From IMG/VR virus record IMGVR_UViG_3300021962_000022: 64,000 nt of DNA; one strand, given 5' to 3'. The stretch's first letter is position 1; every line of letters begins with the position of its first letter. Source of the DNA: a virus. Its lineage: Duplodnaviria; Caudoviricetes. Both the position numbers and the translations under genes were made by a program. Positions 21,101 through 64,000 of this stretch are shown one piece after another. The notes below the pieces were generated by a model. That model did no database searches. It was not told where the DNA came from and was given only the letters and a program-made list of their open reading frames with translations.

Positions 21101-22195
21101 TGAACTTGTTATCGATGGTGTTAATGATGGGGTTACTGAACTTGTTGGTGTTACAGAGCTTGTAACTGACGGTGTAACACTTGAAGTAATTGATGGTGTA
21201 ACACTCGGAGTTACGGAACTTGTTGGAGTTACAGATGGTGTGACTGATGGTGTGATAGATGGTGTAACCGAACTAGTAGGTGTAACTGATGGAGTTACTG
21301 AAGCGGTTATAGATGGAGTCACTGAACTCGTAACAGATGGTGTAACGGAACTTGTTGGGGTTATAGATGGTGTTAAAGACGGAGTAACCGATGGTGTAAC
21401 TGATGGAGTTACTGAACTTGTTGGTGTAACAGAACTAGTAACAGATGGTGTTACTGAAGAAGTTGGTGTAACAGATGTGGTAACCGATGGTGTTACTGAA
21501 GGTGTAACCGACGAAGTTGGTGTTACAGACGGAGTCTCACTTGGAGTTAACGACGGTGTTAAACTTGGTGTTACTGAAGAAGTTGGTGTAACAGATGTGG
21601 TAACCGATGGTGTGATAGAAGGAGTAACTGATGGTGTAACACTTGGAGTAACTGAACTTGTTGGTGTTACACTTGGAGTCTCTGAAGGTGTAATAGATGG
21701 AGTTACAGAGCTAGTGGGTGTGATTGATGGTGTAATCGAGCTAGTTGGAGTTACAGAAGGTGTAACTGATGGTGTAACATCTGGTGTTCTTGTTGGTGTA
21801 ACCGATGGGGTTGGGGTAATTGAACTCGTTGGAGTAACTGATGGAGTCACTGATGGAGTTGAAGTTACTGATGGGGTTGTTGTGACAGTTGGTGTTACTG
21901 AAGGTGTGGTTGTGACAGTTGGTGTAACAGGAGGTGTACTTTGTGGTGTTGGCGTTAAACTTGGTGTAACAGAAGGTGTAATTGAAGGTGTTGGGGATGG
22001 ACAATTAATTGCCGCGTAACATGTTTTGTCATGCGATGGAAAATAAACTGAATAGGTTCCTAAGTAATAAGTTGTGTCGTAATAATACGGCATCACAACA
22101 GTACCTAAATTAATGGTACCGCCAGTACAGGGATAAAATGTGATAACACCAATTTCACCATCAAAATTACCTGTGTTTATCTTTATTAATGCCAT
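6200..22195 (-). CDS. 5331-aa giant mucin-like (TPSV/TSSV repeat) protein with N-terminal domain and C-terminal Cys-rich modules
   Basis: Uninterrupted 16-kb ORF with plausible non-repetitive N- and C-termini, a dedicated upstream promoter, and synonymous variation concentrated at wobble positions of this frame. Confidence 0.85.
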   Translation of the reverse strand: MALIKINTGNFDGEIGVITFYPCTGGTINLGTVVMPYYYDTTYYLGTYSVYFPSHDKTCYAAINCPSPTPSITPSVTPSLTPTPQSTPPVTPTVTTTPSVTPTVTTTPSVTSTPSVTPSVTPTSSITPTPSVTPTRTPDVTPSVTPSVTPTSSITPSITPTSSVTPSITPSETPSVTPTSSVTPSVTPSVTPSITPSVTTSVTPTSSVTPSLTPSLTPSETPSVTPTSSVTPSVTPSVTTSVTPTSSVTPSVTSSVTPTSSVTPSVTPSVTPSLTPSITPTSSVTPSVTSSVTPSITASVTPSVTPTSSVTPSITPSVTPSVTPTSSVTPSVTPSITSSVTPSVTSSVTPTSSVTPSLTPSITSSVTPSVTPTSSVTPSVTPSVTSSVTPSVTSSVTPSVTPSITPSVTPTSSVTPSVTPSVTSSVTPSVTPSVTSSVTPSLTPSVTPSVTSSVTPSVTPSVTPTSSVTPSVTSSLTPSVTPSVTPSVTSSVTPSVTPSVTPTSSVTPSITPSITPSVTPTSSVTPSITPSVTPSVTPSVTPSVTSSVTPSLTPSVTPTSSITPSVTPSVTSSVTPSVTSSVTPSVTSSVTPSVTSSVTPTSSVTPSVTPSRTPSLTPSVTSSVTPSVTSSVTPSITSSVTPTSSVTPSVTPSVTPSVTSSVTPSLTPSVTPSITPSVTSSVTPTSSVTPSVTSSVTPSVSSSVTPSLTPSRTPSVTPSITPSVTPTSSVTPSLTPSVTSSVTPSVTSSVTPSITPSVTSSVTPSETPSVTPTSSVTPSATPSITPSETPSVTPSVTSSVTPSITPSVTSSVTPSITPSITPSETPSVTPTSSVTPSVTSSVTPSVTPTSSVTPSITPSATPSVTPSSSVTPSVTSSVTPSVTPSVTSSVTPSITPSITPSETPSITPTSSVTPSVTSSVTPSITPTSSVTPSITPSITPSETPSVTPTSSVTPSVTPSITPSETPSVTPTSSVTPSITPSITPSETPSVTPTSSVTPSVTASVTPSETPSVTPTSSVTPSVTSSVTPSVTPSVTPTSSVTPSITPSVTSSVTPTSSVTPSITPSETPSVTPTSSVTPSVTASVTPSITPSVTSSVTPSITPSETPSVTPTSSVTPSVTASVTPSITPSVTPTSSVTPSVTPSITPSETPSVTPTSSVTPSITPSETPSVTPTSSVTPSVTPSVTSSVTPSITPSVTASVTPSVTPSVTASVTPSVTSSVTPSITPSETPSVTPTSSVTPSVTASVTPSITPSVTASVTPSITPSITPSETPSVTPTSSVTPSITPSVTASVTPSVTSSVTPSVTASVTPSVTPTSSVTPSVTASVTPSITPSITPSVTSSVTPSITPSITLTSSVTPSITPSETPSVTPTSSVTPSITPSETPSVTPSETPSVTPSVTSSVTPSVTPSVTSSVTPTSSVTPSVTTSRTPSVTPTSSVTPSVTPSVTPSVTPSVTSSVTPSVTSSVTPSVTPTSSVTPSVTPSITPSLTPSRTPSVTPTSSVTPSVTPSVTSSVTPSITPTSSVTPSVTSSVTPSITSSVTPSVTPSVTPSVTPTSSVTPSVTPSLTPSVTPTPAPSCDIDYTMLPSPTPTSTPTPSVTPSLTPSVTASLTPSVTPSLTPSVSSSVTPSVTPSVTNSVTPSITPSVTPSLTPSVTPTSSVTPSLTPSVTSSVTPSVTSSITPSVTSSITPSVTPTSSVTPSITPSRTPSVTPSSSVTPSVTSSVTPSVTPSVTSSVTPSITASVTPSVTPTSSVTPSVTSSVTPSITPSVTPSVTSSVTPSLTPSVTSSVTPTSSVTPSVTSSVTPSVTSSVTPTSSVTPSVTPSVTPSVTATSSVTPSVTPSVTPSVTPTSSVTPSVTPSRTPSVTPSVTSSVTPSVTPSITPSVTASVTPTSSVTPSVTASLTPSVTPTSSVTPSVTSSVTPSVTPSVTPSVTPSVTSSVTPSVTPTSSVTPSVTSSVTPSVTPSSSVTPSVTSSVTPSVTPSVTSSVTPSVTPTSSVTPSVTSSVTPSVTSSVTPTSSVTPSVTPSVTSSVTPTSSVTPSITPSVTPSVTPTSSVTPSVTSSVTPSVTSSVTPSVTPSITPSVTSSVTPTSSVTPSVTSSVTPSVTPSVTPSVTSSVTPSVTPSVTPTSSVTPSLTPSTTPSVTPTSSVTPSVTSSVTPSVTPSVTPSVTSSVTPSVTSSVTPTSSVTPSVTPSITPSLTPSVTSSVTPSVTSSVTPSVTPSVTPTSSVTPSVTSSVTPSVTPSVTPTSSVTPSVTSSVTPSVTPSVTSSVTPSVTPSVTPSVTPTSSVTPSVTPSVTPSVTPTSSVTPSVTPSITPSVTSSVTPSVTSSVTPSVTSSVTPTSSVTPSVTPSVTPSVTPTSSVTPSVTSSVTPTSSVTPSVTPSVTPTSSVTPSVTPSVTPTSSVTPSVTPSVTPTSSVTPSVTPSVTPTSSVTPSVTPSVTPTSSVTPSVTSSVTPSVTPSVTSSITPSITPSRTPSVTPTSSVTPSVTSSVTPSVTPSVTPSVTSSVTPSVTSSVTPTSSVTPSVTPSVTSSVTPSVTPSVTSSVTPSLTPSVTPTSSVTPSVTPSRTPSVTPTSSVTPSVTPSVTSSVTPSVTSSITPSVTPSVTSSVTPTSSVTPSVTSSVTPSLTPSVTPSVTSSVTPSVTPSVTPTSSVTPSVTSSVTPSVTPSVTSSVTPSVTPSVTPSVTPTSSVTPSVTPSVTPSVTPSVTPSVTSSVTPSVTPSVTPTSSVTPSVTSSVTPSLTPSVTPSVTSSVTPSVTSSVTPTSSVTPSVTPSRTPSVTPSVTSSITPSVTPSITPSVTPTSSVTPSVTSSVTPSITPSVTSSVTPSVTPSVTSSVTPTSSVTPSVTSSVTPSITPSVTSSVTPSITPSVTPSVTPTSSVTPSVTSSVTPSITPTSSVTPSVTASVTPSVTPSVTSSVTPSVTPSVTPTSSVTPSVTPSVTPSVTPTSSVTPSVTPSVTPSVTSSVTPSVTPSVTASVTPTSSVTPSVTSSVTPSVTPSVTPSVTSSVTPSVTPSVTPTSSVTPSITPSITPSVTSSVTPSVTSSVTPSVTPSVTPTSSVTPSVTPSVTPSVTPSVTPSVTSSVTPSVTPSVTPTSSVTPSITPSRTPSVTSSVTPSVTSSVTPSVTASVTPTSSVTPSITPSVTPSVTPTSSVTPSVTSSVTPSVTSSVTPSVTASVTPSVTPSVTPTSSVTPSVTSSVTPSVTPTSSVTPSVTPSRTPSVTPSVTSSVTPSVTSSVTPSVTPTSSVTPSVTSSVTPSVTSSVTPSVTSSVTPSVTPSVTPTSSVTPSATPSITPSVTSSVTPSVTSSITPSVTPSVTPTSSVTPSLTPSVTPSVTPTSSITPSVTSSVTPSVTSSVTPTSSVTPSVTPSRTPSVTPSVTPSVTSSVTPSVTPSVTPTSSVTPSVTSSVTPSVTATSSVTPSVTPSVTPSVTSSVTPSVTSSVTPSVTPTSSVTPSVTSSVTPSVTPTSSVTPSITPSRTPSVTPSVTSSVTPSVTSSVTPSITPTSSVTPSITPSVTPSVTPTSSVTPSVTPSVTPSVTSSVTPSVTSSVTPSVTPSVTPTSSVTPSVTPSVTPSVTPTSSVTPSVTPSVTSSVTPSVTSSVTPSVTSSVTPSVTPSVTSSVTPSVTSSVTPSITPTSSVTPSVTPSVTPSVTATSSVTPSVTPSVTSSVTPTSSVTPSITPSRTPSVTPSVTSSVTPSLTPSVTPSVTATSSVTPSITPSTTPSVTPTSSVTPSITPSVTPSVTSSVTPSVTSSVTPSVTPSVTPTSSVTPSLTPSVTPSVTATSSVTPSVTPSLTPSVTPTSSVTPSITPSVTPSVTSSVTPSVTSSITPSVTSSVTPTSSVTPSVTPSRTPSVTPSSSVTPSVTPSITPSLTPSVTPSVTSSVTPSVTPSVTPTSSVTPSVTPSVTPSVTPTSSVTPSVTSSVTPSVTSTSSVTPSLTPSVTPSVTSTSSVTPSLTPSVTPSVTPTSSVTPSITPSVTSSVTPTSSVTPSVTPSVTPSVTSSVTPSITSSVTPSVTPSVTPTSSVTPSVTPSRTPSVTATSSVTPSVTPSVTPSVTATSSVTPSVTSSVTPSVTPSSSVTPSVTPSVTSSVTPSVTPSVTPSVTSSVTPSVTPSVTPSSSVTPSLTPSTTPSVTPSSSVTPSLTPSVTSSVTPTSSVTPSLTPSTTPSVTPSSSVTPSVTPSVTPSVTPTSSVTPSVTSSRTPSVTPSSSVTPSVTSSITPSTTPSVTPSSSVTPSVTASITPSTTPSVTATSSVTPSVTPSRTPSVTPTSSVTPSVTPSVTPSITPTSSVTPSVTPSLTPSVTPSSSVTPSITPSTTPSITPSSSVTPSITSSVTPSVTPSSSVTPSITPSRTPSVTPTSSVTPSVTPSVTPSVTATSSVTPSVTPSLTPSVTPSSSVTPSITPSTTPSVTPTSSVTPSVTPSVTPSVTATSSVTPSITPSTTPSVTPTSSVTPSRTPEPTSSVTPSVTPSRTASVTPSLTPSVTPTSSVTPSVTSSVTPSVTPTSSVTPSVTSSVTPSVTPSVTPSVTSSVTPSVTSSVTPTSSVTPSVTPSVTPSVTPTSSVTPSVTPTPSRTPDPTRSVTPSVTPTSSITPSVTSSVTPTSSVTPSVTPTVTPTSSVTPSVTPSVTPSSSVTPSVTPTVTPSTVIVSVQTQSCCDNNIYNINMTQGDFNYITGNPGIYPFGGTCYQSFVLIANGAYPFYTLASSKFADCASCNAVFTCPTPSPTPTSSVTATPSRTPSLTPSRTPSVTPSITPSLTPTSSVTASITPSTTPSVTPSSSVTPSITPSTTPSVTPSSSVTPSITPSTTPSVTATSSVTPSITPSRTPSVTPSSSVTPSITPSTTPSVTPSSSVTPDPTRSVTPSVTPTSSVTPSVTPTPSRTPDPTRSVTPSVTPTSSVTPSVTPSVTPSSSVTPSITPSLTPTSSVTPSPSPQYIGAVFTSCCAGDTTIYQGRVPIGTAIGTVFYIQSAQLCARFDDFGPNTGPIYTSSYGSCEECILETFQNCPSVTPSRTASVTPSITPSVTPSRTPSVTPTPSVTPSLTPSRTASVTPSRTAGASPPPTPSVTPSRTASVTPSVTPSVTPSVTPSVTPTSSVTPSRTASVTPSLTPSVTPSRTPTPSVTPSLTPSVTPSVTPSSSPAAAGVSPTPTPTPSSTPPCDCREWLVTQLNNWNFVSYTDCQGNAQTLSDPAYWEANGGNHELVLCACGAPNVGGFPWTGSVSVIGACDCKCTEINITDRDITDYGQVYMYYQCCDGQFFQRLYTTATTESRCISRVMYLAVFDRGVWYTIPNLGGTSGFSYGVTCCGGAHGCGCEEVC
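8220..22000. repeat. About 13.8-kb low-complexity coding repeat (3-5 aa units: TPSV, TSSV, TPSI, TPSE, TPSR, TPST)
   Basis: Direct reading; repetitive at protein level, degenerate at DNA level. Confidence 0.95.
14853..15062. repeat. Five near-identical 42-bp tandem copies ([14 protein letters not shown])
   Basis: gaagtaggtgtcactgatggtgtaaccgatggtgtaac(tgat/actc) at 14853, 14895, 14937, 14979 and 15021. Confidence 0.9.
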
Positions 22196-37858: not shown

Positions 37859-40291
37859 TTACGAGCCACAACCTTCACATTCAAAAGGAGAATCTGTTGG
37901 TCTTGATGGTAACGCCATCTCAACAACTTCCTCTTCTTGTTGTTTATTTTGGTTGTATGAAGTGTTTTGTACTTCGTTGGCTTCAACTGTAGGTTTCGCT
38001 GTTGAGGTATCAATACCTAAACCCTTGATTGGGTCAACAGCCGCTCTAGTTCTGAGATAGTACATCCCAGTTTTCAAACCAAGTTTCCATCCATAAAGAT
38101 GTGCTGCTAAAACTTTGGTTTTGTTCGCGTTGTCAATAAATAAATTTAATGATTGTGATTGGTCAATATAAATCGACCTATTCGCAGCCATGGTCAAAAT
38201 TCTTTTTTGAGACATTTCCCAAACTGTCTTGTATACCTCTTTTACTTCAACAGGTATTTCGGGAATGTTCTGTACGGAACCATTTTCCATGATTAGTTTT
38301 TTCTTCAAATCATCTGACCATAAACCTCTTTCAAGTAATTCATTTACGAGGTGTTTATTGATAACAATAAATTCACCACCTAAAGTTCTTCTTGAATATA
38401 AATTAGATGTAAACGGTTCAAACGCTTCGTTATTACCAAGGATTTGTGCAGTAGACGCTGTTGGCATCGGAGCAACTAACAAAGAATTTCTTACACCGTG
38501 TTTTACGATTTCTTTTCTTAAAGTCTTCCAATCCCATCTTCCGCTTGTGTCTTTATCGGTTTTACCCCACAATTCATATTGAAGTATACCTTTAGATAAT
38601 GGAGAACCTTCAAATGTTGAATAATGACCGTGTTCAATTGCCAAATCTTTAGACGATGTTAATGCCGCAAAATAAATTGTTTCAAAAATTTCAACTTGTA
38701 GTTTGTCGGCATTTTCACTTTCAAAAGGTAATCTTAACACACAAAAAACATCTGCCAATCCTTGTACACCTAAACCAACTGGTCTGTGTTTCATATTTGA
38801 AAGTTTTGTTTCCTCTGTAGGATAAAAATTCAAATCAATAACGTTGTTTAGGTTTTTTACCACTTGGTACACATATTCATAAAGTAATTCGTGGTTGAAT
38901 TCTTTATTAATAATGTATTTTGGTAATGCAATTGATGCTAAATTACAAACCGCCTGTTCTTCAGGACTTGAATACTCGATAATCTCAGTACACAAATTTG
39001 AGGATTTAATCGTGCCCAAGTTTTTTTGATTTGATTTATAATTTGCAGCGTCTTTATATAACATGTAAGGTGTGCCGGTCTCGATTTGTGCGGTCAAAAT
39101 TGCATCCATCAATTTTCTCGCCTTCACAACTTTTCTGGCTCTACCTTCTTTTTCATATCTTTCATAAAGTTCGGTGAATTCTTGCGTAAATGAAAATGGG
39201 TCATCATATGCATCAGATAAACCCGGTGCTTCATCAGGTGAAAATAATGACCAATCACCATCTTCCTCAACTCTCTTCATGAAAAGATTTGGGGTCCACA
39301 TTGCCAAGAATAAATCACGAGCTCTCATTTCTTCTTTACCGTGGTTTTTTCTTAAATCAATAAACTCAAACACATCTGAATGCCATGGTTCAAGATAGAT
39401 AGCAAAAGAACCTTTTCTTTTACCACCTTGATTAATCCAACGAGCAACTTCGTTGTATGTTTTCATCATTGGTAGTAATCCATCCGATTCACCGCCTGTC
39501 CCTTTAATGTACGACCCTTTACCTCTAACGTCGTGAACATGTAGTCCAATACCACCAGCCCATTTAGAAATCTTTGCAACGTCTTTAATGGTGTCAAATA
39601 GACCATCAATATCATCTCCCTTGTTACCAATTAAGAAACAAGATGACATTTGTGGACGACGAGTTCCCGCATTAAATAATGTTGGTGTGGCATGAGTGTA
39701 AAAATGTTGTGATAGGTCGTCGTAGATTCTTAAAGCAGTCTCTAAATCACCATTACAAATACCAACCGCAACTCTCATGTACATGTATTGGGGTCTCTCA
39801 ACAATTCGTTTACCGATTCTTAATAAGTAAGAACGTTCAAGTGTTTTAAAACCAAAGTAATCAAAATCAAAATCTCTTTCTTGTGCAACAGCACCATCCA
39901 ATGATTCTCTATTTTGAATTACGAATTGATAAACCTCGTCAGATATCAATGAAGATTCTTTACCTGTTTTAGGTTCATTAAAAGAATATAATTCTTTAAT
40001 ACACTGTGAAAACTTTTTTGGTGTTGTTTTATGTAGGTTAGAAACCGCTAGTCTACCCGCCAATTTAGCATAATCAGAATGTGTTGTAACCATTGAAGCC
40101 GCGGTCTCCGCCGCTAATGTGTCTAATTCTGTTGTTGATATACCATCATAGATTCCCTGCGTAACTTTAAGGGTAACCAATGTAGGGTCAACGTATTCTA
40201 AATTTAAATCATCACAAAAAAATTGTATTCTTCGTGTAATTTTGTCATATCTCATTTCTTCCAATGAGCCGTCTCTCTTTTTTACTTTCAT
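37859..40291 (-). CDS. nrdA: Ribonucleoside-diphosphate reductase class Ia alpha subunit (N-terminal ATP cone)
   Basis: KRDG ATP cone, TPTLFNAG, SSCFL, SNLCTEI, CNLAS, APMPTASTAQILG, C-terminal CEGC. Confidence 0.98.
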   Translation of the reverse strand: MKVKKRDGSLEEMRYDKITRRIQFFCDDLNLEYVDPTLVTLKVTQGIYDGISTTELDTLAAETAASMVTTHSDYAKLAGRLAVSNLHKTTPKKFSQCIKELYSFNEPKTGKESSLISDEVYQFVIQNRESLDGAVAQERDFDFDYFGFKTLERSYLLRIGKRIVERPQYMYMRVAVGICNGDLETALRIYDDLSQHFYTHATPTLFNAGTRRPQMSSCFLIGNKGDDIDGLFDTIKDVAKISKWAGGIGLHVHDVRGKGSYIKGTGGESDGLLPMMKTYNEVARWINQGGKRKGSFAIYLEPWHSDVFEFIDLRKNHGKEEMRARDLFLAMWTPNLFMKRVEEDGDWSLFSPDEAPGLSDAYDDPFSFTQEFTELYERYEKEGRARKVVKARKLMDAILTAQIETGTPYMLYKDAANYKSNQKNLGTIKSSNLCTEIIEYSSPEEQAVCNLASIALPKYIINKEFNHELLYEYVYQVVKNLNNVIDLNFYPTEETKLSNMKHRPVGLGVQGLADVFCVLRLPFESENADKLQVEIFETIYFAALTSSKDLAIEHGHYSTFEGSPLSKGILQYELWGKTDKDTSGRWDWKTLRKEIVKHGVRNSLLVAPMPTASTAQILGNNEAFEPFTSNLYSRRTLGGEFIVINKHLVNELLERGLWSDDLKKKLIMENGSVQNIPEIPVEVKEVYKTVWEMSQKRILTMAANRSIYIDQSQSLNLFIDNANKTKVLAAHLYGWKLGLKTGMYYLRTRAAVDPIKGLGIDTSTAKPTVEANEVQNTSYNQNKQQEEEVVEMALPSRPTDSPFECEGCGS

Positions 40292-40297
40292 AATATT

Positions 40298-41275
40298 TTA
40301 AAAATCTATATCGTCAAATGATGTATCCATATCTTCGATGGATACGTTATTATTAACACCCGCTTTTTGGTATTCTGCCACTCTTTTTTCAAAGAAATTG
40401 GTTTTACCCTGTAATGCAATGTTTTGCATAAAGTCAAACGGATTTTCTGAATTATAGACCTTAGAACAATTTAAAGACACTAACAATCTATCTGTTACGA
40501 ATTCCAAATATTGTGACATCAAATCAGAATTCATACCAATTAATTTTACAGGTAGGGCCTCTAAAATAAATTCCTTTTCAATCTCTAAAGCCCCACAGAT
40601 TATCTCTTTAATCTTTTTCTCACTTATTTTATTTTCAATGTGATTATTGAATAAGTGACAAGCAAAGTCACAGTGCATTCCTTCGTCTCTTGAAATGAGC
40701 TCATTTGAGAAGGTTAATCCTGGCATTAAACCACGTTTTTTGAGCCAGAAAATGGAACAGAATGAGCCAGAAAAGAAAATACCCTCAACAGCAGCAAACG
40801 CCAACAACCTTTCCACAAAAGATTTTGAATTAATCCATTTGATTGCCCATTCCGCTTTTTTCTTAATTGCAGGTACGGTTTCAATTGCATTAAACAATTT
40901 GTTTTGTTCTTGTTTGTCTTTGATGTAGGTATCAATCAAAAGTGAATAGGTTTCACTATGAATATTTTCCATCATGATTTGAAAACCGTAAAACATTTTC
41001 ACCTCAGTGTACTGAACTTCATTGACAAAGTTCATTGCCAAGTTTTCATTCACAATACCGTCTGAAGCTGCGAAAAACGCTAAAACGTGTTTAACGAAAT
41101 GTTGTTCATCCTCGTTCAATTTGTTTTCCCAATCATAGATGTCTTGTGCCAAATCAATTTCTTCGGCGGTCCAAAAACACGCCTCTTGTTGTTTGTAAAG
41201 TCTCCAAATGTCGTGGTGTTCGATTGGAAAAAGGACAAATCGTCCGGGATTTTCTTTTAAAATCTTTTCTGTCAT
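40298..41275 (-). CDS. nrdB: Ribonucleoside-diphosphate reductase class Ia beta subunit
   Basis: [61 protein letters not shown]. Confidence 0.98.
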
Positions 41276-41286
41276 GGTGTTTATTA

Positions 41287-42663
41287 TTAATTTCTATTTA
41301 ATGTTTCTTGTCTTTTCATAAACGCATCCTTAATTCTTTCGGAATTGTTTTTTTGTTTTTCTTCCTTGTGACCAAGTAGTGTAGTTTGTGACTCGGTATC
41401 AATAACCAAAAGTCGGTTGTCAAATTTACAATTTTGCCATATGATACCATCTCTACCAATTCTTGATTTAAGTAATGTCATGGTTGCTAAATTGTGTTCT
41501 TTTTGTTCAATAGTTTTACCTATTGATAGAATAACGTGTGCAATTTGAGCTTTCTTAATTGAACCACCCATTTGGTCGCTATTAACAACTTCGGATGAAA
41601 TTGATTCTCTGTTACCTTGTGTTGCCGTCCAAATAACGATTCCAAATTCACTTGTCATCGCTTCTAAACTTCTCATTACTGAACCTTCACCTTTCCATTC
41701 TTCACCGAATTGTGATTTGTCAGGACTGATACAGTCAACGTAGTCGATAACAAGTAGGTCAATTTTTTTACCCTCTGAATTTCTTTTTCTTAATCTCGAT
41801 TTGATTTCAGAGATTGTAACAGAATCACTTGGTAATTTCAAAATGTCCAAAGTTCCTTTACTTTGTGTTTGAACTTCGTTGATTTTTTCTTTTACGAAAT
41901 CTTTATTTTCAGGTTGTTCATCGGGGGCAATTCCTGACCAAATTGTATAGTGTTTCTTTTTAATGTTATCCGGATTGTCCTCAAAGAATATTTGAAGGAC
42001 GTTGTAATCGTGTAAGTAAGCGGTATTCGCAAATAAAGATAATATTGTAGTTTTACCCGTTCCTGTTGGAGCCAAAACAACACCAAGTTCTCCAGTCCCT
42101 AAACCACCCTTCAAAGCTGAATCAAGACCTTCAATTCCCGTTGGAATCGGTTGTCTATTATCCTTCTCTAAAGCCTCATCGATATTGTGGAAAACATCCA
42201 TACACTCTTCAGGTGGTAACCCAACCTGTAGGGCCTTTTGTATAATACCCTCAATTTTATGGTACTCTTGGAATTTACCATTTTCAATAATGGTAGTAAC
42301 CATTTTGAGTTCCTTCTTCAAATTTTGTTGTTTACAAAAATTTAAAGCTTCTTCTCTAACCATTGGGTCATCCACGGTATTTTCTTTAATATCGTGGATA
42401 GTGTCCAAGTGTATTCTTGCGGTCTCTTGAGAACCTAATTCAAGAATTATGGTTTGACATAGACTTTGATAATCAGGTATCTTACCATATTTCTGATAGT
42501 ATTCTTTAATGTGAGCAGTAATGAATCTAAAAGAACTATTATCAAAATATTTGCTCTCGATTACATCAATAATCTGTTCACCGTACTTTTTATCCTCTAC
42601 TATTGATTTAATTAATGTTTGTTGGAATGATGCTCCGAGAAATCCAAAATTTTTTTCTGACAT
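41287..42663 (-). CDS. DnaB-like replicative helicase (T4 gp41-like)
   Basis: Walker A APTGTGKT, Walker [24 protein letters not shown] arginine finger. Confidence 0.92.
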
Positions 42664-42677
42664 AGTTTTTTTAGTTT

Positions 42678-43121
42678 TTATAATTTGTAATTTAAATACG
42701 TTGTTTCCAAATCTTTAGATGATAAGATGTCAGTTAAGTCTGACAAATACCTCTTCAAATATGGGCGAATATCTACCGTATATCTTACCTTAGGGTGGTA
42801 GACATTAGCGGAAAACATCCTTTGAATAAATACATCGTCACCCATCTTAATCTCGAGTAAGAAATACTCTTTTTCATTTTGTTCATCAGTTTCTGCAACC
42901 TCTAAACCGTAAAAATAATCACGATTTTCGTGTAGATAATCCAATGTTTTTGTTTTTAAATCATCACTAATATCGCTACAAATATTTTTAACGTAGTAGT
43001 GTAAATCCATTGAACGTCTAGATTTGGAGTTATGCTCTCTAACGTTAAAGAATCGTTGGCAGATAATGTTTCCTTCTAAGGTCAAAAGGAACTCGAACTT
43101 TGTTACATCTTGATTACTCAT
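42678..43121 (-). CDS. 147-aa hypothetical protein in the replication module
   Basis: ORF track; overlaps the exonuclease stop; fits the operon. Confidence 0.8.
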   Translation of the reverse strand: MSNQDVTKFEFLLTLEGNIICQRFFNVREHNSKSRRSMDLHYYVKNICSDISDDLKTKTLDYLHENRDYFYGLEVAETDEQNEKEYFLLEIKMGDDVFIQRMFSANVYHPKVRYTVDIRPYLKRYLSDLTDILSSKDLETTYLNYKL

Positions 43122-44136
43122 TGTCTCTAATTTTAATTAATTTTTTATTTTTTTCTTTTCTTGTTAATCTTAAAAAAGGATTTAGGAAGTTTATCCACGC
43201 GTCATCTGATTTTGGTAGAAGTAAGAATATACCATCTTCCATCATCATCTTCATCGTGTTTTTATATGAACGACCCTCAGGGTCAATCAAATCGTTTATA
43301 AGTGAATTAATAGATTCTTTTGCATCATCTGTTAAAAAGGGATTTTCAAGACTTACTATTCGACTATTCACATCAAAGAATTCTTCACCAAGTATTCCAT
43401 ATTTTGTTACACCTGTCAATAAATTTTTAACAATGTTATTGTCATTGTCTTGTTCAAAAAGATTGTTGAATCTTTCCAATACAAATTCTATAGAAATTTC
43501 CTCGGTTTTAACTTCAGGTACCATTGAGACTAATCGTCTAACACCTAAGTTTTTAATACCCGCAATATTATCAGACGGGTCACCACAAATCATTTTGACA
43601 ATTTTAATGTTTTGTATTAAAATCTGTTCATGGTCATATACGAACATATCATTAGGTTGATATATTTTACTGTGTGAGGGATTGTATAATCGAGTGTTTT
43701 CTGATACTAATTGTGTTAAATCACCATCCGAAGAAAAGATAATTTTATCTTCTTTTGGTGAATTTTGACTGTAGTATGCAATTGCGTCGTCAGTCTCACA
43801 AAATTCGTATTCTCCTTGTCTAACAAAAAGTTCTTCGAGATATTGTTTGACTCTGTTTCTCTGTTTTCCATACGAATGAATCTCTTCTTCACTGCGTATT
43901 CTAGATTTACGATTCTCTTTGTATTGATGATAGAATCTTTTTCTTGTTAAAGAACCATCTTGACCGTCCCAAAAAACGACAATTTTATCTAAACGATGTA
44001 TCTCAATTGTCCTTCTTAAAGTATTGATAAAATGGTAAATTCCACCAATATGTTCTCCCTTATAAAAGTGATTTTTTAATCCAAAAAAACCAATAGTAAG
44101 TAAATTGTCTCCATCTACTAATAATACATTAGGCAT
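43114..44136 (-). CDS. 5'-3' exonuclease / RNase H (FEN-like, PolI N-terminal or T4 Rnh type)
   Basis: LLVDGDNL, FWDG, ETDDAIA, SSDGDLTQL, GDPSDNIAGIKNLG (H3TH motif). Confidence 0.93.
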   Translation of the reverse strand: MPNVLLVDGDNLLTIGFFGLKNHFYKGEHIGGIYHFINTLRRTIEIHRLDKIVVFWDGQDGSLTRKRFYHQYKENRKSRIRSEEEIHSYGKQRNRVKQYLEELFVRQGEYEFCETDDAIAYYSQNSPKEDKIIFSSDGDLTQLVSENTRLYNPSHSKIYQPNDMFVYDHEQILIQNIKIVKMICGDPSDNIAGIKNLGVRRLVSMVPEVKTEEISIEFVLERFNNLFEQDNDNNIVKNLLTGVTKYGILGEEFFDVNSRIVSLENPFLTDDAKESINSLINDLIDPEGRSYKNTMKMMMEDGIFLLLPKSDDAWINFLNPFLRLTRKEKNKKLIKIRDNE

Positions 44137-44167
44137 TAATCATCACTCTTATAGGGTTAAACAAATA

Positions 44168-45166
44168 TTAATCTTCTTCTTCGTAATCAAAAGTTGTTGA
44201 TTCGGCTAAATCAAAATCCGTAGACCCTAATTTATCTCTCCAAAAACTTGAGTATTCTTTTTTGTATCCTTCCAACGCCTCTTTGGTGTCAGCGATATAT
44301 CCATTGTGAACAACGATAACTTTACCGTCTTTGTATCCTAAACCATTGACGTGATTCTTGAGGATAGAGATTTTAGTTCTTACAGCGTAAACAACTTTTC
44401 TACCATCTTTAGTTGCATCAATGTGGTTGATACCTGATTTCTTTTGGTTACCGAACAAAAAGATTAATGACGACGCCAATTTTAACGCTTCACCACCTTT
44501 TGGTTTGATTTCAGGTTGACCCATAGGATTATCGGGTAATTCTACCCATGGTTGGTTTACAACAACCATTGTTAGGTAATATGATGAATCTTTAGATGGG
44601 TAGTCTTCTTTTTTGGATTTGGTAATTCTTGAGTGAATACCCATACCAATTTTGTCAGATAAAACACTTGCGTTGTGTTGTTTACCACCTTTACCATCAA
44701 AGGTCATCTTACATGGTATTGAACCGATAGAGTCCCAACAGAACAAAATGTGTCTTGGGATTTCACCTTTCTCATGTGCGTTGATAATATCGTTTATGAA
44801 ATCGGTTGCTTGTTCAATATAGTCAAAGGAATCATTGAAGATAAAATCTCCCGTCCATTCACCATTTGAATCTTTTTCAGCTTGAAATCCTAATTCAATT
44901 GCGTGTTCCCATTTCCATTTTCTCTCCGTAATAAGTAGTACAGGTAGATGCCCTTTCTTTTGTGCATCAACCGCCGCTAAAATCATTGCGGTAGTTTTTG
45001 AAGAGTTAGTATGTCCTAAAAACATATTAATCCCACCCATTACAGGTCCGGGTAATCCACACGCATTGTTAAATGCCTCACCACAATAATAGAAGTTTTC
45101 GTCCTTGTATTTTGTTTTAGATGAGAATTTGGATATATAATCAAATTCTTTTTTCTTGATTGCCAT
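44168..45166 (-). CDS. RecA/UvsX-like recombinase
   Basis: P-loop-like GHTNSSKTT, ILFCWDSIGS Walker B, VVVNQ, KPKGGEAL; adjacent to SSB. Confidence 0.85.
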   Translation of the reverse strand: MAIKKKEFDYISKFSSKTKYKDENFYYCGEAFNNACGLPGPVMGGINMFLGHTNSSKTTAMILAAVDAQKKGHLPVLLITERKWKWEHAIELGFQAEKDSNGEWTGDFIFNDSFDYIEQATDFINDIINAHEKGEIPRHILFCWDSIGSIPCKMTFDGKGGKQHNASVLSDKIGMGIHSRITKSKKEDYPSKDSSYYLTMVVVNQPWVELPDNPMGQPEIKPKGGEALKLASSLIFLFGNQKKSGINHIDATKDGRKVVYAVRTKISILKNHVNGLGYKDGKVIVVHNGYIADTKEALEGYKKEYSSFWRDKLGSTDFDLAESTTFDYEEED

Positions 45167-45188
45167 TGTATATTTTATAATTTTTTTG

Positions 45189-45232
45189 AAAAAAAGAGCA
45201 TGGACATCATGTTAATTCACGTGTCCATGCTC
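45189..45232 (-). terminator. Rho-independent terminator after the SSB gene
   Basis: 11-bp stem GAGCATGGACA/TGTCCATGCTC followed by U7. Confidence 0.85.
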
Positions 45233-45239
45233 GTATTGA

Positions 45240-46097
45240 TTAAAATGGTAAATCGTCGTCTCCTTCAGCGTCTTCTTGTGGGTCAAACTCAGGAGCTGGT
45301 GATTTCTTAACGGGTGTTGATGGTTTCGCAATCTCAAACTCTTCTGTAGAATTTGATACGTATTTACCAGTTGTAGTATCCCATCTTGGAACTTCACCTC
45401 TTGCAACCATTTCCAAATATTCTTCAGGTTTTTTAGAATATACATCAGACCAAGTCAATTCATCTTTTAACCAAGTTGACGCAACATCTGAATCTGTGTG
45501 TAATGGAGATTGGTCTTCAGGGATGATAGATGTGATTGTAGTATATTCTCTACCATTACCAGCTTTGGTAAGGTTAAGGTTGATGATTAAATCTCTACCT
45601 TTTTGTGGGTCGGTGATATCACCTTTGTTTTTGAAAAGAGGGTAGATTTTATCCAACACACCTTCATTTTTGGTGTTGTGTTTAAATCTCCAAAATTTAA
45701 CTCCATCTTGTTCTCTTTCTCGGTCGATAACTTTCACAATGTAAAATTTACGTGAACGATACTGACGAGCCAAAACCTTGTCTTGTTCATCACCCGTCAT
45801 AATCAAACCTTCATAAACCTCATTTAAAGGTGAACGTTTTCCGTCTTTGCTCGGGTCGTAAAGTTTTACCCAATTACCATCTATTTGTACTTCATGGAAG
45901 TAAGCTTCTTTAAATGGTGAACCACCATCGTCAGATGGAAGGATTCTAATTCTTCTTTCACCACTTCTCTCACCCTTAGGTAAAACGGTGGTAAAATACT
46001 TTTTCATTCTATCCTCTTGGGATACCTTGTTTGCACTGCCGCCTGCGGCTTGTTTGTTCTTTTCGTACTGTGCCAGTACTGATTCTACTGTTGACAT
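45240..46097 (-). CDS. Single-stranded DNA-binding protein (T4 gp32-like)
   Basis: RIRILP, FHEV, FYIVKVIDR, DITDPQKGRDLII; acidic C-terminal tail ending DDDLPF. Confidence 0.88.
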   Translation of the reverse strand: MSTVESVLAQYEKNKQAAGGSANKVSQEDRMKKYFTTVLPKGERSGERRIRILPSDDGGSPFKEAYFHEVQIDGNWVKLYDPSKDGKRSPLNEVYEGLIMTGDEQDKVLARQYRSRKFYIVKVIDREREQDGVKFWRFKHNTKNEGVLDKIYPLFKNKGDITDPQKGRDLIINLNLTKAGNGREYTTITSIIPEDQSPLHTDSDVASTWLKDELTWSDVYSKKPEEYLEMVARGEVPRWDTTTGKYVSNSTEEFEIAKPSTPVKKSPAPEFDPQEDAEGDDDLPF

Positions 46098-46579: not shown

Positions 46580-47192
46580 CTTCTTCTGTTTCTGGATTAA
46601 ATGTGTCTCTTATTGTATCTCTTGAGTAATCTTCAATATCTTGTTTAGTTAAAACGTACTCGTTTTTACCACTTTGTTGCATTTCACCTTGTTTTTGTGC
46701 AAAGAACTGTTGTGGGTTCATATTAAATGGATATGAGTCTAAAGAACGTAACTCCAATTTCTCTTGTGGGGTTTTTTCTTTCATTGACTCAACTTTGTTT
46801 CCAAGTTCGTCAATTTTATTCATGACTGAGTCCATCTGTGATAACTTTTGTTCCAAATCGTTCAGTTTACTAAAGACTGTCTCCATCTTATCAACAACAG
46901 CGGTGTTGTCAGATTTATTATCATCCAAATCTTTTTTAATTGATTTGGTCATGTTAACTAAATCAGTGATGTCAATTTCTTCAGTATCTGTTGCTGCGGG
47001 TACATCACCCGTTGGTGGTGGAACATCCGCAGGTGGTGGAACATCTGTTGGTGGTACAGCAGGTTCAATTGGCGGTGCATCCATAGGTGGTGGAGGTGGA
47101 ACCTCACCTTGTTCCATCAAAGTTTTTGCATATTTATTAATCGCATTGTATCTTGCGAGTTCTTCCATTAATGATTTTTCTAGTTTTTTCAT
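46563..47192 (-). CDS. 209-aa hypothetical protein (Pro/acidic linker plus coiled coil)
   Basis: ORF track; heptad-rich centre; 17-nt overlap with the downstream gene. Confidence 0.8.
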   Translation of the reverse strand: MKKLEKSLMEELARYNAINKYAKTLMEQGEVPPPPPMDAPPIEPAVPPTDVPPPADVPPPTGDVPAATDTEEIDITDLVNMTKSIKKDLDDNKSDNTAVVDKMETVFSKLNDLEQKLSQMDSVMNKIDELGNKVESMKEKTPQEKLELRSLDSYPFNMNPQQFFAQKQGEMQQSGKNEYVLTKQDIEDYSRDTIRDTFNPETEEDEFKF

Positions 47193-61597: not shown

Positions 61598-62086
61598 TTA
61601 GTAAACTAATATACATCTATCCATTCTCAATGAACAAGTGATAGATGCAATATCATCTCTTGAATAGTCTAGTTCATTAAAGTTTAAGTCGGTGATAAAA
61701 GTACCTTGAAGTATCCATTTTTCAACCACAACCCCCGTTGGGTCTAACATTTCTAATTCAATGTCTTTTTTATAACCAGCAGCATAACCCATACGACCTG
61801 TAACTGATTCTGCGTGTAAACGGAACCACTCCATTAATGCCTGAGCGGCTGAAGGTCCAATTGGGTCTTTGAAGGTTACTCTTATTTCGTTCCATTCAAA
61901 TCTACCAGCAACATATGTTGATGTGTTGATAAACGGAATCGCAACTGAATTAATTTTTGCACTTGGTCTAGCACTTGAGGTTACATACCATTCGTTGATA
62001 CCCAATGATGAGGGAAATCTTAATATGAATCGGTTAACTCTCTTCGGTTCGTAAGGAACCGGCATTTTCATTAATAAATCTGCCAT
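61598..62086 (-). CDS. Tail tube protein (T4 gp19-like), 162 aa
   Basis: EPKRVNRF, YVAGRFEWNEIRVTFKDPI, YKKDIELEMLDPTGVVVEKWILQG. Confidence 0.93.
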   Translation of the reverse strand: MADLLMKMPVPYEPKRVNRFILRFPSSLGINEWYVTSSARPSAKINSVAIPFINTSTYVAGRFEWNEIRVTFKDPIGPSAAQALMEWFRLHAESVTGRMGYAAGYKKDIELEMLDPTGVVVEKWILQGTFITDLNFNELDYSRDDIASITCSLRMDRCILVY

Positions 62087-62127
62087 GTCAATATTTGTTT
62101 TTTATTTTTTTTATTGTTAATCTTTCT

Positions 62128-62135
62128 TATAAATA
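62128..62135 (-). promoter_or_regulatory. Putative late promoter motif TATTTATA
   Basis: Exact motif 41 nt upstream of the tube gene ATG. Confidence 0.6.
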
Positions 62136-62208
62136 TCCTGTATCTGAAAAAACAAAAAAATCTTGTTCATCCCTTGATTATGTCAAAATAATTTCGTATT
62201 TTTTCCAT

Positions 62209-62286
62209 ACTAGTACTAGATGCTAGTAAATATAGAACTAGATTAAATAAACTAGAATAACTAGAATCAAATAAACTAGAACTAGA
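62209..62286. repeat. Non-coding array of eight CTAG-centred motifs (mostly ACTAGA)
   Basis: CTAG at 62210, 62216, 62223, 62238, 62252, 62261, 62276 and 62282. Confidence 0.85.
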
Positions 62287-62366
62287 ATACTGGTGCATAT
62301 ACTGGGTAATTTATAATTTTATTTTTTTTATATTTTAATATTTTTCTGTGGAACAAATAATATCAA

Positions 62367-62382
62367 CGTTTCACGTGGAACA
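62367..62382 (-). promoter_or_regulatory. parS-like centromere site TGTTCCACGTGAAACG
   Basis: 15/16 match to the bacterial chromosomal parS consensus TGTTNCACGTGAAACA; extra half-site TGTGGAACA at 62347-62355. Confidence 0.75.
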
Positions 62383-62407
62383 TAAAATAGGGAGGGTTTC
62401 CCCTCCC
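62383..62407 (-). terminator. Rho-independent terminator after the tail sheath gene
   Basis: GGGAGGG-GAAA-CCCTCCC (GNRA loop) followed by TATTTTA. Confidence 0.88.
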
Positions 62408-62414
62408 CTTTTTA

Positions 62415-64000
62415 TTAGATATTGTCAAATGATGCTCCTGTTGGTGTGATTATGAACTCAACATCGATGAATTCAAGAGCTCTTGTTGGTTTAATATAAA
62501 TTTTACCTCTCAAAGTATTAGCGTCAATGTCCTCAGGGTCGTTTGAAACCGTTACACGGAATTCATATAAACCTCTTTCTCTCTTGATTGCGTCTAATAT
62601 TGGGTTTACCAATCTCAAGAACTCGTTACGAACTTGTTCATCGTTTTGTTCAAATAGTAATCTAACTGCCACCGCTGAAATCAATTTTCTTGCTCTCAAC
62701 AACAATCTTCTTACGTTAATTCTATCCAATGCTGATTCACGAACTTGAAGAGTTTTATTACCCCAAATTATCGTTCCTGTATCTGCGAATGTTGCGATAG
62801 GGTTAATTCGAGCTTTGTATAGGTCATCTCTTTCATCCAAAGTTAATTTCTTGAAAGCTTTGATAGAGTTAACCAAACCTCTTGAGTAACCCGCTACTGC
62901 GAACCAAGGGAAGGATACGTTATCTGTTAATGCGATATTTCTTAATACTTCACCTGTTGGTGGAAGATATAGTTGTACCGCGTTATCCACGTCTCTAACT
63001 TGAATCCAAGGCCAATATGTTGCTGAATAGTTACTATCAATTGCAACTCCGTCCAATGCGTCTATAATTTCGTCAGAAGTACCATAGTTTGGTGGTGATA
63101 TCACATAAAGTGAATCTGCTCTGTCTTCTTCAATCATATCAATTGCGTATGATGTTAAAGAACTATGGTCGTAGAAGTTAATACCCGGTGTTGAGAATAT
63201 ATTGATGTCAACCGCCTCAGGGTTTGCAAAAGTGTCAATACCTTGAGTATATGCGTAGTAGTCAGAGTTTCCTGATACCGTACTAAACACCCCTCCGTTT
63301 GTGGTATTACCACTTGTGTAGGTAGTTTTACCAAAGATATAACCATCACCGTAAGTTCTTACGTTTCTGTAGATATCCCATCCATCAAATCCACCACCTG
63401 CGGCGAATGTGAATTTACGGTAGTTGATGTTTGTTAAAACGTTGTTTGCTCCACCTGTTTGACCTTCTAAATCATATGATGTAGTTAAGAAGGTAGTACC
63501 TGTGATAGTAGATGCGTTTGTTGATAAGTGGAAACCTTTAGTTGTTCCCGCAGCTCCCGTTCCTTTGAATTTAAATAAATCCCTATCGTATGTTGATTTA
63601 TTAACTGGACTTGATAAACCAAAGTAAACCTTTCTCACTTTATCTCCTGAAGATAAAATAGGTGTTCCGTCCGCTTCGTATCCTGTTGTATCACCCGCGT
63701 CATAGAATTCTGTTTTATACATTACTGAACCTAAAGTTTTAGTTCCAAATGATGTGTTGTTCACAAATCCTTTGAAACCGCCAGGGTATGCATCAATCGG
63801 GTGGTCATTGGCCATCGATAACATAATGTATCTTGAACGTAATTCGTATTCACCATCAGATGTACCAACTTTTTTAGCCACATAACCAGGTAGGTCAGGA
63901 TTCATATTACATCTTGAATATTTTTCAAGAACCACAATATTGTCGTCAGTATCATTGAAGTCACGAACAATTAAGTCGAAGTCACCAGTGTTTACATCTA
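62415..64000 (-). CDS. Contractile tail sheath protein (T4 gp18-like), 5'-truncated by the window edge
   Basis: SNYSATYWPW, PWFAVAGYSRG, RDDLYKARINPI, IWGNKTLQ, ALDRINVRRLL, LFEQND; the frame stays open to the window end (DVNTGDFDLIVRDFND...). Confidence 0.96.
   Translation of the reverse strand, partial: DVNTGDFDLIVRDFNDTDDNIVVLEKYSRCNMNPDLPGYVAKKVGTSDGEYELRSRYIMLSMANDHPIDAYPGGFKGFVNNTSFGTKTLGSVMYKTEFYDAGDTTGYEADGTPILSSGDKVRKVYFGLSSPVNKSTYDRDLFKFKGTGAAGTTKGFHLSTNASTITGTTFLTTSYDLEGQTGGANNVLTNINYRKFTFAAGGGFDGWDIYRNVRTYGDGYIFGKTTYTSGNTTNGGVFSTVSGNSDYYAYTQGIDTFANPEAVDINIFSTPGINFYDHSSLTSYAIDMIEEDRADSLYVISPPNYGTSDEIIDALDGVAIDSNYSATYWPWIQVRDVDNAVQLYLPPTGEVLRNIALTDNVSFPWFAVAGYSRGLVNSIKAFKKLTLDERDDLYKARINPIATFADTGTIIWGNKTLQVRESALDRINVRRLLLRARKLISAVAVRLLFEQNDEQVRNEFLRLVNPILDAIKRERGLYEFRVTVSNDPEDIDANTLRGKIYIKPTRALEFIDVEFIITPTGASFDNI

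What the first reader, a model, noticed from the sequence alone, without database searches (positions are those of the whole stretch)
62340..62410. Host-type parS centromere in a phage tail operon
Seen: TGTTCCACGTGAAACG (minus strand, 62382-62367) plus a half-site at 62347-62355, directly abutting the sheath terminator. It was the only such site I found in 64 kb, and no parA/parB gene is in the window. Known: TGTTNCACGTGAAACA is the chromosomal parS consensus bound by ParB/Spo0J-CTP in Bacillota, Actinomycetota, Bacteroidota and other phyla. It is usually origin-proximal and loads SMC. Inference: the phage may recruit or titrate host ParB to position or segregate its genome (carrier state or pseudolysogeny), load SMC, or disturb host chromosome segregation. 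ParB spreading could also modulate late tail transcription.
Basis: partly seen in the sequence, partly recalled or inferred. Interest (0 to 1): 0.8.

Follow-up and report, generated by a model that had tools for sequence, protein, structure and literature searches.

The report
Host-type parS site in jumbo phage
A giant T4-like phage of Bacteroidota carries, just behind the terminator of its tail-sheath gene, one copy of the DNA word that its likely host family uses to load the chromosome-partition protein ParB; the phage has no partition genes of the usual kind, so it probably borrows or soaks up the host's ParB, a trick I could not find described.

Summary
TGTTCCACGTGAAACG lies at 62367-62382 (minus strand). 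It has one outer mismatch to the parS consensus and a perfect 14-bp core, abuts the sheath terminator, and is the only match with up to 2 mismatches in 64 kb.

It is not chance. A palindrome tGTTCCAC-NN-GGAACc sits behind the sheath or the tube terminator in 46 of 80 related uncultured phages, usually once per roughly 250-kb genome.

The host is Bacteroidota. Early genes of the closest relative use TTTG/TAnnTTTG promoters, and a 248-kb relative was binned with a Flavobacteriaceae genome. In that bacterial family 53 of 61 genomes carry 1-3 exact sites, mostly TGTTCCACGTGGAACA, then TGTTCCACGTGAAACA. These are the phage family's consensus and this window's core.

Four large relatives have no ParA and no canonical ParB. 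Two of the four encode a divergent 251-residue ParB/KorB-fold protein elsewhere.

Both perfect parS palindromes exceed 119 hits in IMG/VR, against 2-3 for composition-matched controls.

Best reading (about 0.55): a true parS that host ParB loads on. What the phage gains is inferred only. Two-thirds of relatives have a degenerate centre, the site is often lost, and nothing is tested experimentally.

The same site was also noted in an overlapping window of this scan.

The parts
62415..63935 (-). tail sheath gene (506 aa)
   Evidence: Pfam Phage_sheath_1 and Phage_sheath_1C. 599 relatives were found in IMG/VR; the best 80 are 66-93% identical.
62383..62408 (-). intrinsic terminator of the sheath gene (8-pair G+C-rich stem 62389-62408, then a T-tract)
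   Evidence: Terminator scan. The RNA fold of 62335-62415 gives -24.9 kcal/mol, z = -3.2. A terminator is present at the same place in relatives, with different stems.
62367..62382 (.). parS-type 16-bp palindrome, TGTTCCACGTGAAACG on the minus strand; the core GTTCCACGTGAAAC matches parS perfectly
   Evidence: Conserved in relatives. Its first 15 bases equal a common chromosomal parS variant of Flavobacteriaceae.
62348..62354 (-). extra heptamer GTTCCAC (a 'half-parS'), specific to this lineage
   Evidence: It lies in a 27-bp insert not shared with relatives. The window holds 39 GTTYCAC heptamers against 27 +/- 5 expected, so its position could be chance (my estimate p about 0.05).
62337..62366 (-). 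weak sigma-70-like match (TTGATA-18-AATATT) directly after the palindrome; not conserved
   Evidence: 9 of 12 positions; the number of such matches in the region is as expected by chance. Absent in L001.
62205..62306 (-). conserved CCCAGTAT box followed by an array of CTAG-core repeats (context, not part of parS)
   Evidence: The window has 8 CTAG in 62001-63000 against 0-3 per kb elsewhere outside the giant gene.
62128..62135 (-). late-promoter-like box TATTTATA, 41 nt upstream of the tube ATG
   Evidence: The same box lies about 4-45 nt upstream of many late-gene starts in the window. This is inference by analogy with the T4 late promoter TATAAATA.
61598..62086 (-). tail tube gene (162 aa, T4 gp19-like)
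   Evidence: Pfam Phage_T4_gp19, weak. 75-99% identical in relatives.

Best explanation
The 16-mer is a genuine chromosomal-type parS, a nucleation site for ParB-CTP. It is kept as a single non-coding copy just downstream of a strong terminator in the late tail-gene region of a virulent-looking, T4-like jumbo phage of Bacteroidota, probably Flavobacteriaceae. The phage lineage has no ParA and no canonical ParB, and the site is spelled like the host family's own ori-proximal parS. Host ParB is therefore expected to load on every phage genome copy.

Shown here: the sequence identity, its conservation, its single-copy intergenic placement behind terminators, the host phylum, the host-family parS, and the absence of phage parA and canonical parB.

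Inferred: that host ParB binds, and what follows from it. I consider the most likely consequence to be recruitment of the host ParB (and possibly SMC) machinery to organise or position phage DNA. With only 1-3 sites on the host chromosome, replicating phage genomes would also titrate ParB away from the host origin. Placement right behind a terminator would shield the nucleation site from late transcription.
For: (1) 15 of 16 match to the consensus, perfect 14-bp core, unique in 64 kb, chance about 1-2%.
(2) 46 of 80 relatives (sheath 66-93% identical) carry tGTTCCAC-NN-GGAACc. In 35 it lies 40-85 nt after the sheath stop; in 11 it lies 50-90 nt after the tube stop. Another relative has ATGTTCCACGTGGAACAT in a different 450-bp non-coding region. 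All follow a terminator.
(3) At least one heptamer GTTYCAC is kept in every one of 39 distinct sites. The only freely varying arm position (C/T) is the N of the parS consensus. GTTCCAC and GTTTCAC are the half-sites that P. aeruginosa ParB binds in vivo (PMC10419367).
(4) There are one or two copies per 233-287-kb contig.
(5) The distance to promoter-like boxes varies: the palindrome overlaps the -35 region in one clade and lies at about -45 to -58 in another. This argues against a promoter-bound operator.
(6) Host: 14 Bacteroidota-type promoters (TTTG-N18-21-TAnnTTTG), all on the coding strand, lie in 13.5 kb of the early block of the closest relative, against 0.8 expected. No Shine-Dalgarno sequences are seen. 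A 248-kb relative is binned in a Flavobacteriaceae MAG.
(7) That MAG has a canonical ParB (113 bits) and two TGTTCCACGTGGAACA flanking mnmG/gidA. It has no other GTTYCAC-NN-GRAAC site, so there is no sign of a second host regulon with this motif.
(8) 53 of 61 genomes of that family hold 1-3 exact sites, mostly TGTTCCACGTGGAACA, then TGTTCCACGTGAAACA; the control pattern gave 0.
(9) No ParB_N above cut-off and no ParA (AAA_31, CbiA) in four contigs of 176-287 kb.
Only 2 of 50 such records have ParB_N, and 0 of the 7 that are at least 90% complete.
Against: - The central CACGTG is intact in only about 60% of the 39 distinct family sites (26 of 39). In the weaker half, adenine 6 and cytosine 7 are kept in 67% and 74%. 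Adenine 6 is a ParB-versus-Noc specificity base (PMC7383237). 11 of 39 sites have 3 mismatches to the symmetric consensus, beyond the usual limit of 2.
- The last base is mostly C rather than A.
- The site is missing from about 30 of 80 loci and decayed by point changes in L002, so it is dispensable.
- A 176-kb relative (51% complete) has none.
- Two of the four large relatives encode a ParB/Noc/KorB-fold protein that could be the true binder.
- The host family rests on binning, on labels of metagenome bins and on promoter type, not on an isolate.
- It is unknown whether the phage DNA is modified or shielded from host proteins.
- Part of the IMG/VR excess could be host or plasmid DNA in 'viral' contigs.
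- There is no experimental binding data.
Confidence: 0.55

Rival explanations
1. The palindrome is the binding site of the phage's own divergent ParB/KorB-fold protein (251 aa, DGQHR motif, encoded in the early block). On this reading it is a phage-private ParB-like system, and host ParB is not the intended partner.
For: The protein exists in the closest relative (G001:220262-221014) and in G002, at 42% identity to each other. The AlphaFold model is confident (pLDDT 91.5). Its best PDB matches are ParB, Noc, KorB and pNOB8 ParB over about 240 columns, at E about 2e-4. It belongs to a family of at least 190 similar metagenomic proteins of about 250 residues.
Against: It has DGQHR instead of the GERR arginine patch of CTP-dependent ParB. 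Pfam ParB_N scores only 13-15 bits and GmrSD_N 22.6 bits, all below cut-off. No parS-like site lies next to the gene in G001. The one inside the G002 gene is unique to that sequence among 45 homologues. G003 has a perfect palindrome but no homologue in 251 kb. This reading does not explain why the site is spelled exactly like the host family's parS, nor why the same 16-mer recurs in unrelated viral contigs.
Confidence: 0.15
2. It is an operator for an unrelated dimeric transcription factor (phage or host) that controls expression of the tube or baseplate genes or read-through at the terminator. The likeness to parS would be convergent.
For: The arms GTTCC/GGAAC are more conserved than the centre, as in many operators with a spacer. 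The site always lies between a terminator and promoter-like A/T-rich boxes. Some relatives carry extra abutting half-sites, such as GTGGAAC-GTTCCAC-GTGGAAC.
Against: There is no fixed register to any promoter. The tube's own late box is about 230 bp away, and the site moves between intergenic gaps. The family consensus is 15 of 16 identical to parS. There is no other site of this kind in the phage genomes, nor in the Flavobacteriaceae MAG apart from its two parS.
Confidence: 0.15
3. It acts in RNA, as a small hairpin at the 3' end of the sheath or tube transcript (stability or processing signal).
For: In three clade-B relatives the palindrome forms the tip of the tube terminator hairpin. C-to-T and G-to-A changes at arm positions 5 and 12 often go together.
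Against: In the window the site lies after the terminator T-tract and does not fold into a significant hairpin. Hybrid sites give a C-A mismatch on the sense strand in some relatives and on the antisense strand in others. There is no Rfam match.
Confidence: 0.05
4. It is a chance match or a relic without function.
For: There is a single site. Chance in one 64-kb window is about 1-2%. It is often lost.
Against: It is conserved across 39 distinct sequence contexts while the flanks diverge. It is re-positioned but retained in distant relatives, and it matches the host-family variant.
Confidence: 0.05

Closest known systems
Chromosomal parS of the ParABS system (TGTTNCACGTGAAACA; B. subtilis Spo0J sites, P. 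aeruginosa parS1-4; review PMC7022226)
   Same: The same 16-bp palindrome. The same tolerated position 5. The heptamer GTTCCAC/GTTTCAC (PMC10419367). It is identical to the sites that flank mnmG/gidA in Flavobacteriaceae genomes.
   Different: It sits on a phage, not next to a chromosomal origin. It is a single copy with no parAB operon in cis. In relatives the centre of one half-site is often degenerate.
Partition sites of plasmid-prophages (P1/P7 parS with their own ParA/ParB; N15 sop; mycobacteriophage parABS, PMC7157519)
   Same: A centromere-like site on a phage genome.
   Different: Those elements are temperate, encode their own ParA and ParB, and use private site sequences. Here no ParA or canonical ParB is found, the replication and structural genes are T4-like, and the site has the host's sequence.
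KorB/OB and Noc/NBS: ParB-family proteins with their own 16-bp palindromes (PMC7383237; PDB 8qa8, 7ol9)
   Same: The phage's 251-aa protein resembles these folds. They show that ParB-like proteins can act as regulators at palindromes.
   Different: The site here has guanine 1 and adenine 6 of parS, not the A and C of NBS, and it is unlike the KorB operator. No link between the phage protein and this site is shown.

Membership tests
chromosomal-type parS (ParB nucleation site) | 16-bp palindrome matching TGTTNCACGTGAAACA with at most 1-2 mismatches | tested here: met
   15 of 16 positions match and the 14-bp core is perfect.
chromosomal-type parS (ParB nucleation site) | the organism in whose cell it acts encodes canonical ParB and uses the same sequence | tested here: met
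   Bacteroidota promoters in the phage's early block. A Flavobacteriaceae MAG with a binned relative has ParB and two TGTTCCACGTGGAACA at gidA. 53 of 61 genomes of that family carry exact sites. The host family is inferred, not proven.
chromosomal-type parS (ParB nucleation site) | specific binding and CTP-dependent loading of ParB | not testable with these tools
   Needs EMSA or BLI, a clamp-loading assay, or ChIP.
chromosomal-type parS (ParB nucleation site) | conservation of all base-contact positions, including the central CACGTG | tested here: inconclusive
   The window's site is intact. Across 39 distinct family sites one half is nearly invariant, but in the other half A6 and C7 are kept in only 67% and 74%.
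chromosomal-type parS (ParB nucleation site) | origin-proximal position, often in clusters | tested here: inconclusive
   It is a single copy. The phage origin is unknown, there is no GC-skew turn at the site, and an iteron-like CTAG array lies 60-180 bp away.
autonomous phage/plasmid partition cassette (parA-parB-parS) | own ParA ATPase and ParB adaptor encoded with the site | tested here: not met
   No AAA_31, CbiA or ParB_N above cut-off in four related contigs of 176-287 kb. None in the 26 window proteins scanned.
promoter-linked operator of a transcription factor | fixed distance and helical register to the regulated promoter across relatives | tested here: not met
   Distances to promoter-like boxes differ between clades, and the site moves between intergenic gaps.

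The most novel reading that the evidence does not exclude
Host-type parS is a widespread and so far unrecognised class of cis-element in phage genomes that lack partition genes. Unrelated phages, including several jumbo phages, would each keep one site spelled like their host's centromere. They would use it to load the host's ParB-CTP clamp (and through it SMC or ParA) onto viral DNA, or to strip ParB from the one to three sites of the host chromosome during infection.
Probability: 0.35. Interest if true: 0.85.

Novelty: new variant of a known kind. Interest (0 to 1): 0.66.

Why it matters
ParB-parS is the near-universal bacterial centromere and the loading point of condensin. A virulent-type phage that keeps the host's own centromere word, without partition genes, would be a new form of host take-over. 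It could also be a route to persistence, because the phage genome would be segregated like a chromosome in a carrier state. The idea is directly testable with purified ParB and short oligonucleotides. The excess of perfect parS in IMG/VR over matched controls (more than 119 against 2-3) suggests the phenomenon reaches well beyond this phage. There is a practical side too: the parS spelling could help predict hosts of uncultured phages.

Tried and rejected
- No whole genome is held for the window, so the genome-wide scan was done on related contigs instead.
- Megablast of the locus against cultured phages found nothing.
- The second GTTCCAC-AC-GGAAC site of G002 lies inside the ParB-like gene, which recalls the parS inside B. 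subtilis spo0J. I rejected it as functional because the codons (VPCGT) are unique to that sequence among 45 homologues.
- The three GTTCCAC copies at 47018-47096 are codons of a Pro-rich repeat.
- A site in a distant relative (L217) is inside a gene and was given no weight.
- Rfam gave nothing above threshold, and the RNA hairpin reading was rejected.
- A homing-endonuclease target was considered, because insertions occur between the sheath and tube genes and an AP2-like ORF lies near the G003 site. I rejected it because such a target would not reproduce the host's parS nor recur in unrelated phages.
- The literature searches found no description of orphan host-type parS in virulent phages. 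Livny et al. 2007 is not held.
- The cultured-phage collection cannot be scanned for 16-mers with these tools.

Full report
**1. What is there**

On the minus (coding) strand the order is as follows.
- The sheath gene (62415-63935) ends in TAA.
- An 8-pair G+C-rich terminator follows (stem 62389-62408), with a T-tract.
- The 16-mer TGTTCCACGTGAAACG follows immediately (62382 down to 62367).
- Next come 12 nt and a lone heptamer GTTCCAC (62354-62348), then an A/T tract.
- Then a CCCAGTAT box (62306-62299), an array of CTAG-core repeats (about 62290-62205) and a late-promoter-like TATTTATA (62135-62128).
- The tube gene starts at 62086.

The 16-mer differs from TGTTNCACGTGAAACA only at its last base. 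It is the only match with up to 2 mismatches in the window. Matches with 3 mismatches are at chance level. A match with up to 1 mismatch is expected in roughly 1-2% of sequences of this size and composition.

The 26 window proteins scanned show no ParA or ParB family. The window encodes T4-type baseplate, sheath and tube proteins, ribonucleotide reductase, a DnaB-like helicase, a 5'-3' exonuclease, a RecA/UvsX-like protein and gp32.

**2. Conservation**

The sheath protein has 599 relatives in IMG/VR. I studied the best 80 loci, which are 66-93% identical.
- In 35 loci a palindrome of the form tGTTCCAC-NN-GGAACc lies 40-85 nt after the sheath stop, directly behind the terminator.
- In 11 others it lies 50-90 nt after the tube stop, again behind or within a terminator.
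- One relative whose sheath-tube gap lacks it (G003, 251 kb) has ATGTTCCACGTGGAACAT in another 450-bp non-coding region, also after a terminator.
- Large contigs hold one such site. G002 holds two, the second being a coding-region coincidence.

Among 39 distinct sites one half, (T)GTTYCAC, is nearly invariant: G 39/39, T 36, T 39, C 39, A 39, C 36. The only freely varying arm position (C or T) is the N of the parS consensus. In the other half the arm is conserved, but A6 and C7 are kept in only 26 and 29 of 39.

About 30 loci have no site within reach. In L002 a decayed remnant aligns with it. The window's extra heptamer lies in a 27-bp insert that differs even in the 93%-identical relative.

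The palindrome is therefore under selection but dispensable, and it can move between neighbouring non-coding gaps.

**3. Who is the host, and what is its parS?**

The 13.5-kb early block of the closest relative (G001) holds 14 matches to the Bacteroidota promoter consensus TTTG-N18-21-TAnnTTTG. All are on the coding strand, against 0.8 expected, and 0 of 200 shuffles reach 14. Window genes lack Shine-Dalgarno sequences.

In the species-representative genome collection, the best sheath match (73%) is a 248-kb contig binned in a Flavobacteriaceae MAG. Five of the ten hits carry Bacteroidota labels.

That MAG has a canonical ParB (113 bits). It has exactly two GTTYCAC-NN-GRAAC sites, both TGTTCCACGTGGAACA, flanking mnmG/gidA next to ybeY and a DNA polymerase III subunit gene.

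In 61 genomes of its family, 53 carry 1-3 exact TGTTYCACGTGRAACA sites, typically as a pair about 1.9 kb apart. The reversed control pattern gave none. The commonest spelling is TGTTCCACGTGGAACA, then TGTTCCACGTGAAACA; the all-T form is rare.

These are the phage family's consensus and the window's first 15 bases.

**4. Does the phage have its own partition proteins?**

No ParB_N above cut-off and no ParA-type ATPase (AAA_31, CbiA) is found in four related contigs of 176-287 kb.

There I found a 251-aa protein with a DGQHR motif. It scores below cut-off for ParB_N and GmrSD_N.
- It has a 42%-identical homologue in G002 and at least 190 relatives in metagenomes.
- Its AlphaFold model (pLDDT 91.5) matches ParB, Noc, KorB and pNOB8 ParB over both domains. 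The scores are modest: E about 2e-4, TM 0.3-0.48.
- It is not found in G003, which has a perfect site, and no site lies beside the gene in G001.

It remains a possible binder and is the main rival.

**5. Is it a promoter element or an RNA?**

The tube gene has its own late box about 230 bp from the palindrome. In many clade-A relatives the palindrome ends 7-8 nt before a TATAA box. In L033 and L079 it is 8 nt from the CCCAGTAT box. In clade B it lies 9-15 nt upstream of a TTGATT-17-TATATT promoter of the baseplate gene. No constant register exists.

The window's palindrome does not fold significantly and there is no Rfam match. Hybrid sites break pairing on either strand. These readings are disfavoured.

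**6. A wider pattern**

Exact scans of IMG/VR gave these counts.

| Pattern | Stretches found |
|---|---|
| TTGCTCACGTGAGCAA (control, same composition) | 2 |
| ACAAGGTGCACCTTGT (control, same composition) | 3 |

The hits lie in contigs of 23-71% G+C. Of the first 80 checked, only 2 are relatives of this phage. Several sit right after terminators (L088, L090, L126, L138). Others are inside long ORFs.

Of 50 records checked, 2 have ParB_N, and none of the 7 that are at least 90% complete does. One of the 50 is a 351-kb contig without ParB_N.

Caveats:
- divergent ParB-like proteins escape that Pfam test;
- some contigs repeat the same lineage;
- some 'viral' contigs may carry host or plasmid DNA, as the multi-site clusters suggest.

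Even so, the recurrence of this exact word in unrelated phages is hard to explain except through the one protein family known to read it across phyla.

**7. Mechanism**

What is established elsewhere: ParB dimers nucleate at parS, bind CTP, close into clamps and slide for kilobases. They recruit SMC and interact with ParA (reviews PMC7022226, PMC7333895). Guanine 1 and adenine 6 of the half-site set ParB-versus-Noc specificity (PMC7383237). P. aeruginosa ParB also binds the lone heptamers GTTCCAC and GTTTCAC (PMC10419367).

Inference for this phage:
- Each phage genome copy offers one high-affinity site to host ParB.
- The host chromosome has only 1-3 sites, so replicating phage DNA would soon outnumber them.
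- ParB would then be both recruited to phage DNA and drawn off the host origin.
- Placement just behind a strong terminator would protect the nucleation complex from late transcription.

Which consequence is selected (positioning or compaction of phage DNA, inheritance in a carrier state, or disturbance of host segregation) cannot be decided here.

**8. Objections**

The main objection is the degenerate centre in about a third of relatives. The second is the phage's own ParB-fold protein.

**9. Verdict**

The identification as a host-type parS is supported by conservation, host match and absence of a private partition system. The proposed functions remain untested.

I found no paper describing orphan host-type parS in virulent phages in the held library. 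I rate it a new variant of a known kind, with confidence 0.55 in the ParB-loading reading.

Noticed in passing
window 62205-62306; L001-L080 downstream of the sheath stop: A CCCAGTAT(A) box followed by an array of CTAG-core repeats (ACTAGAA, TCTAGTT) is conserved in position in most relatives. In L003 and L005 the array is closed by the inverse box TATACTGGG. In the clade that has the palindrome after the tube gene, the array is built from TTAGAA and TCAGTA units instead. The unit changes with the lineage, as if it co-evolved with a binding protein.
   Followed up: partly
window, upstream of the starts at 890, 3576, 6155, 27447, 35363, 58628, 60603 and 62086: A box TATTTATA (or a near variant) lies about 4-45 nt upstream of many late-gene ATGs. 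It is probably this lineage's version of the T4 late promoter TATAAATA. The giant gene at 6200-22195 instead has TTGACA-N17-TATATT.
   Followed up: partly
L084:260-1015 (G001:220262-221014) and L082:1872-2615: A family of at least 190 metagenomic proteins of about 250 residues has a DGQHR motif and a confident two-domain ParB/Noc/KorB-like fold. The two copies I located on large phage contigs sit in or beside the early block, among TGTATGACA motifs. Its function and DNA target are unknown.
   Followed up: partly
IMG/VR loci L087-L206 and L224-L303: Both perfect parS palindromes are at least 40 times more frequent in viral contigs than composition-matched palindromes. They occur in complete genomes with terminal repeats and in other very large contigs (351 kb) without a Pfam ParB. 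Several contigs with the T-variant carry clusters of 3-5 sites.
   Followed up: partly
L006, L064, L065, L067, L076/L077 between the sheath and tube genes: In several relatives the sheath-tube gap holds insertions of 0.7-3.6 kb with extra ORFs (one begins MKIELNC...C..C). It looks like a hot spot for mobile genes, as between conserved late genes of T4-type phages.
   Followed up: no
L081 2300-2445 (G003): The ORF ending just upstream of the G003 palindrome has an AP2-like C-terminal motif (YRVRV...G...F.T..AA..YR), as in HNH-AP2 homing endonucleases.
   Followed up: no
window 37859-46097: A replication and nucleotide module (NrdA, NrdB, DnaB-like helicase, 5'-3' exonuclease, UvsX/RecA-like, gp32-like) is wedged between baseplate genes and large structural genes on the same strand.
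   Followed up: no
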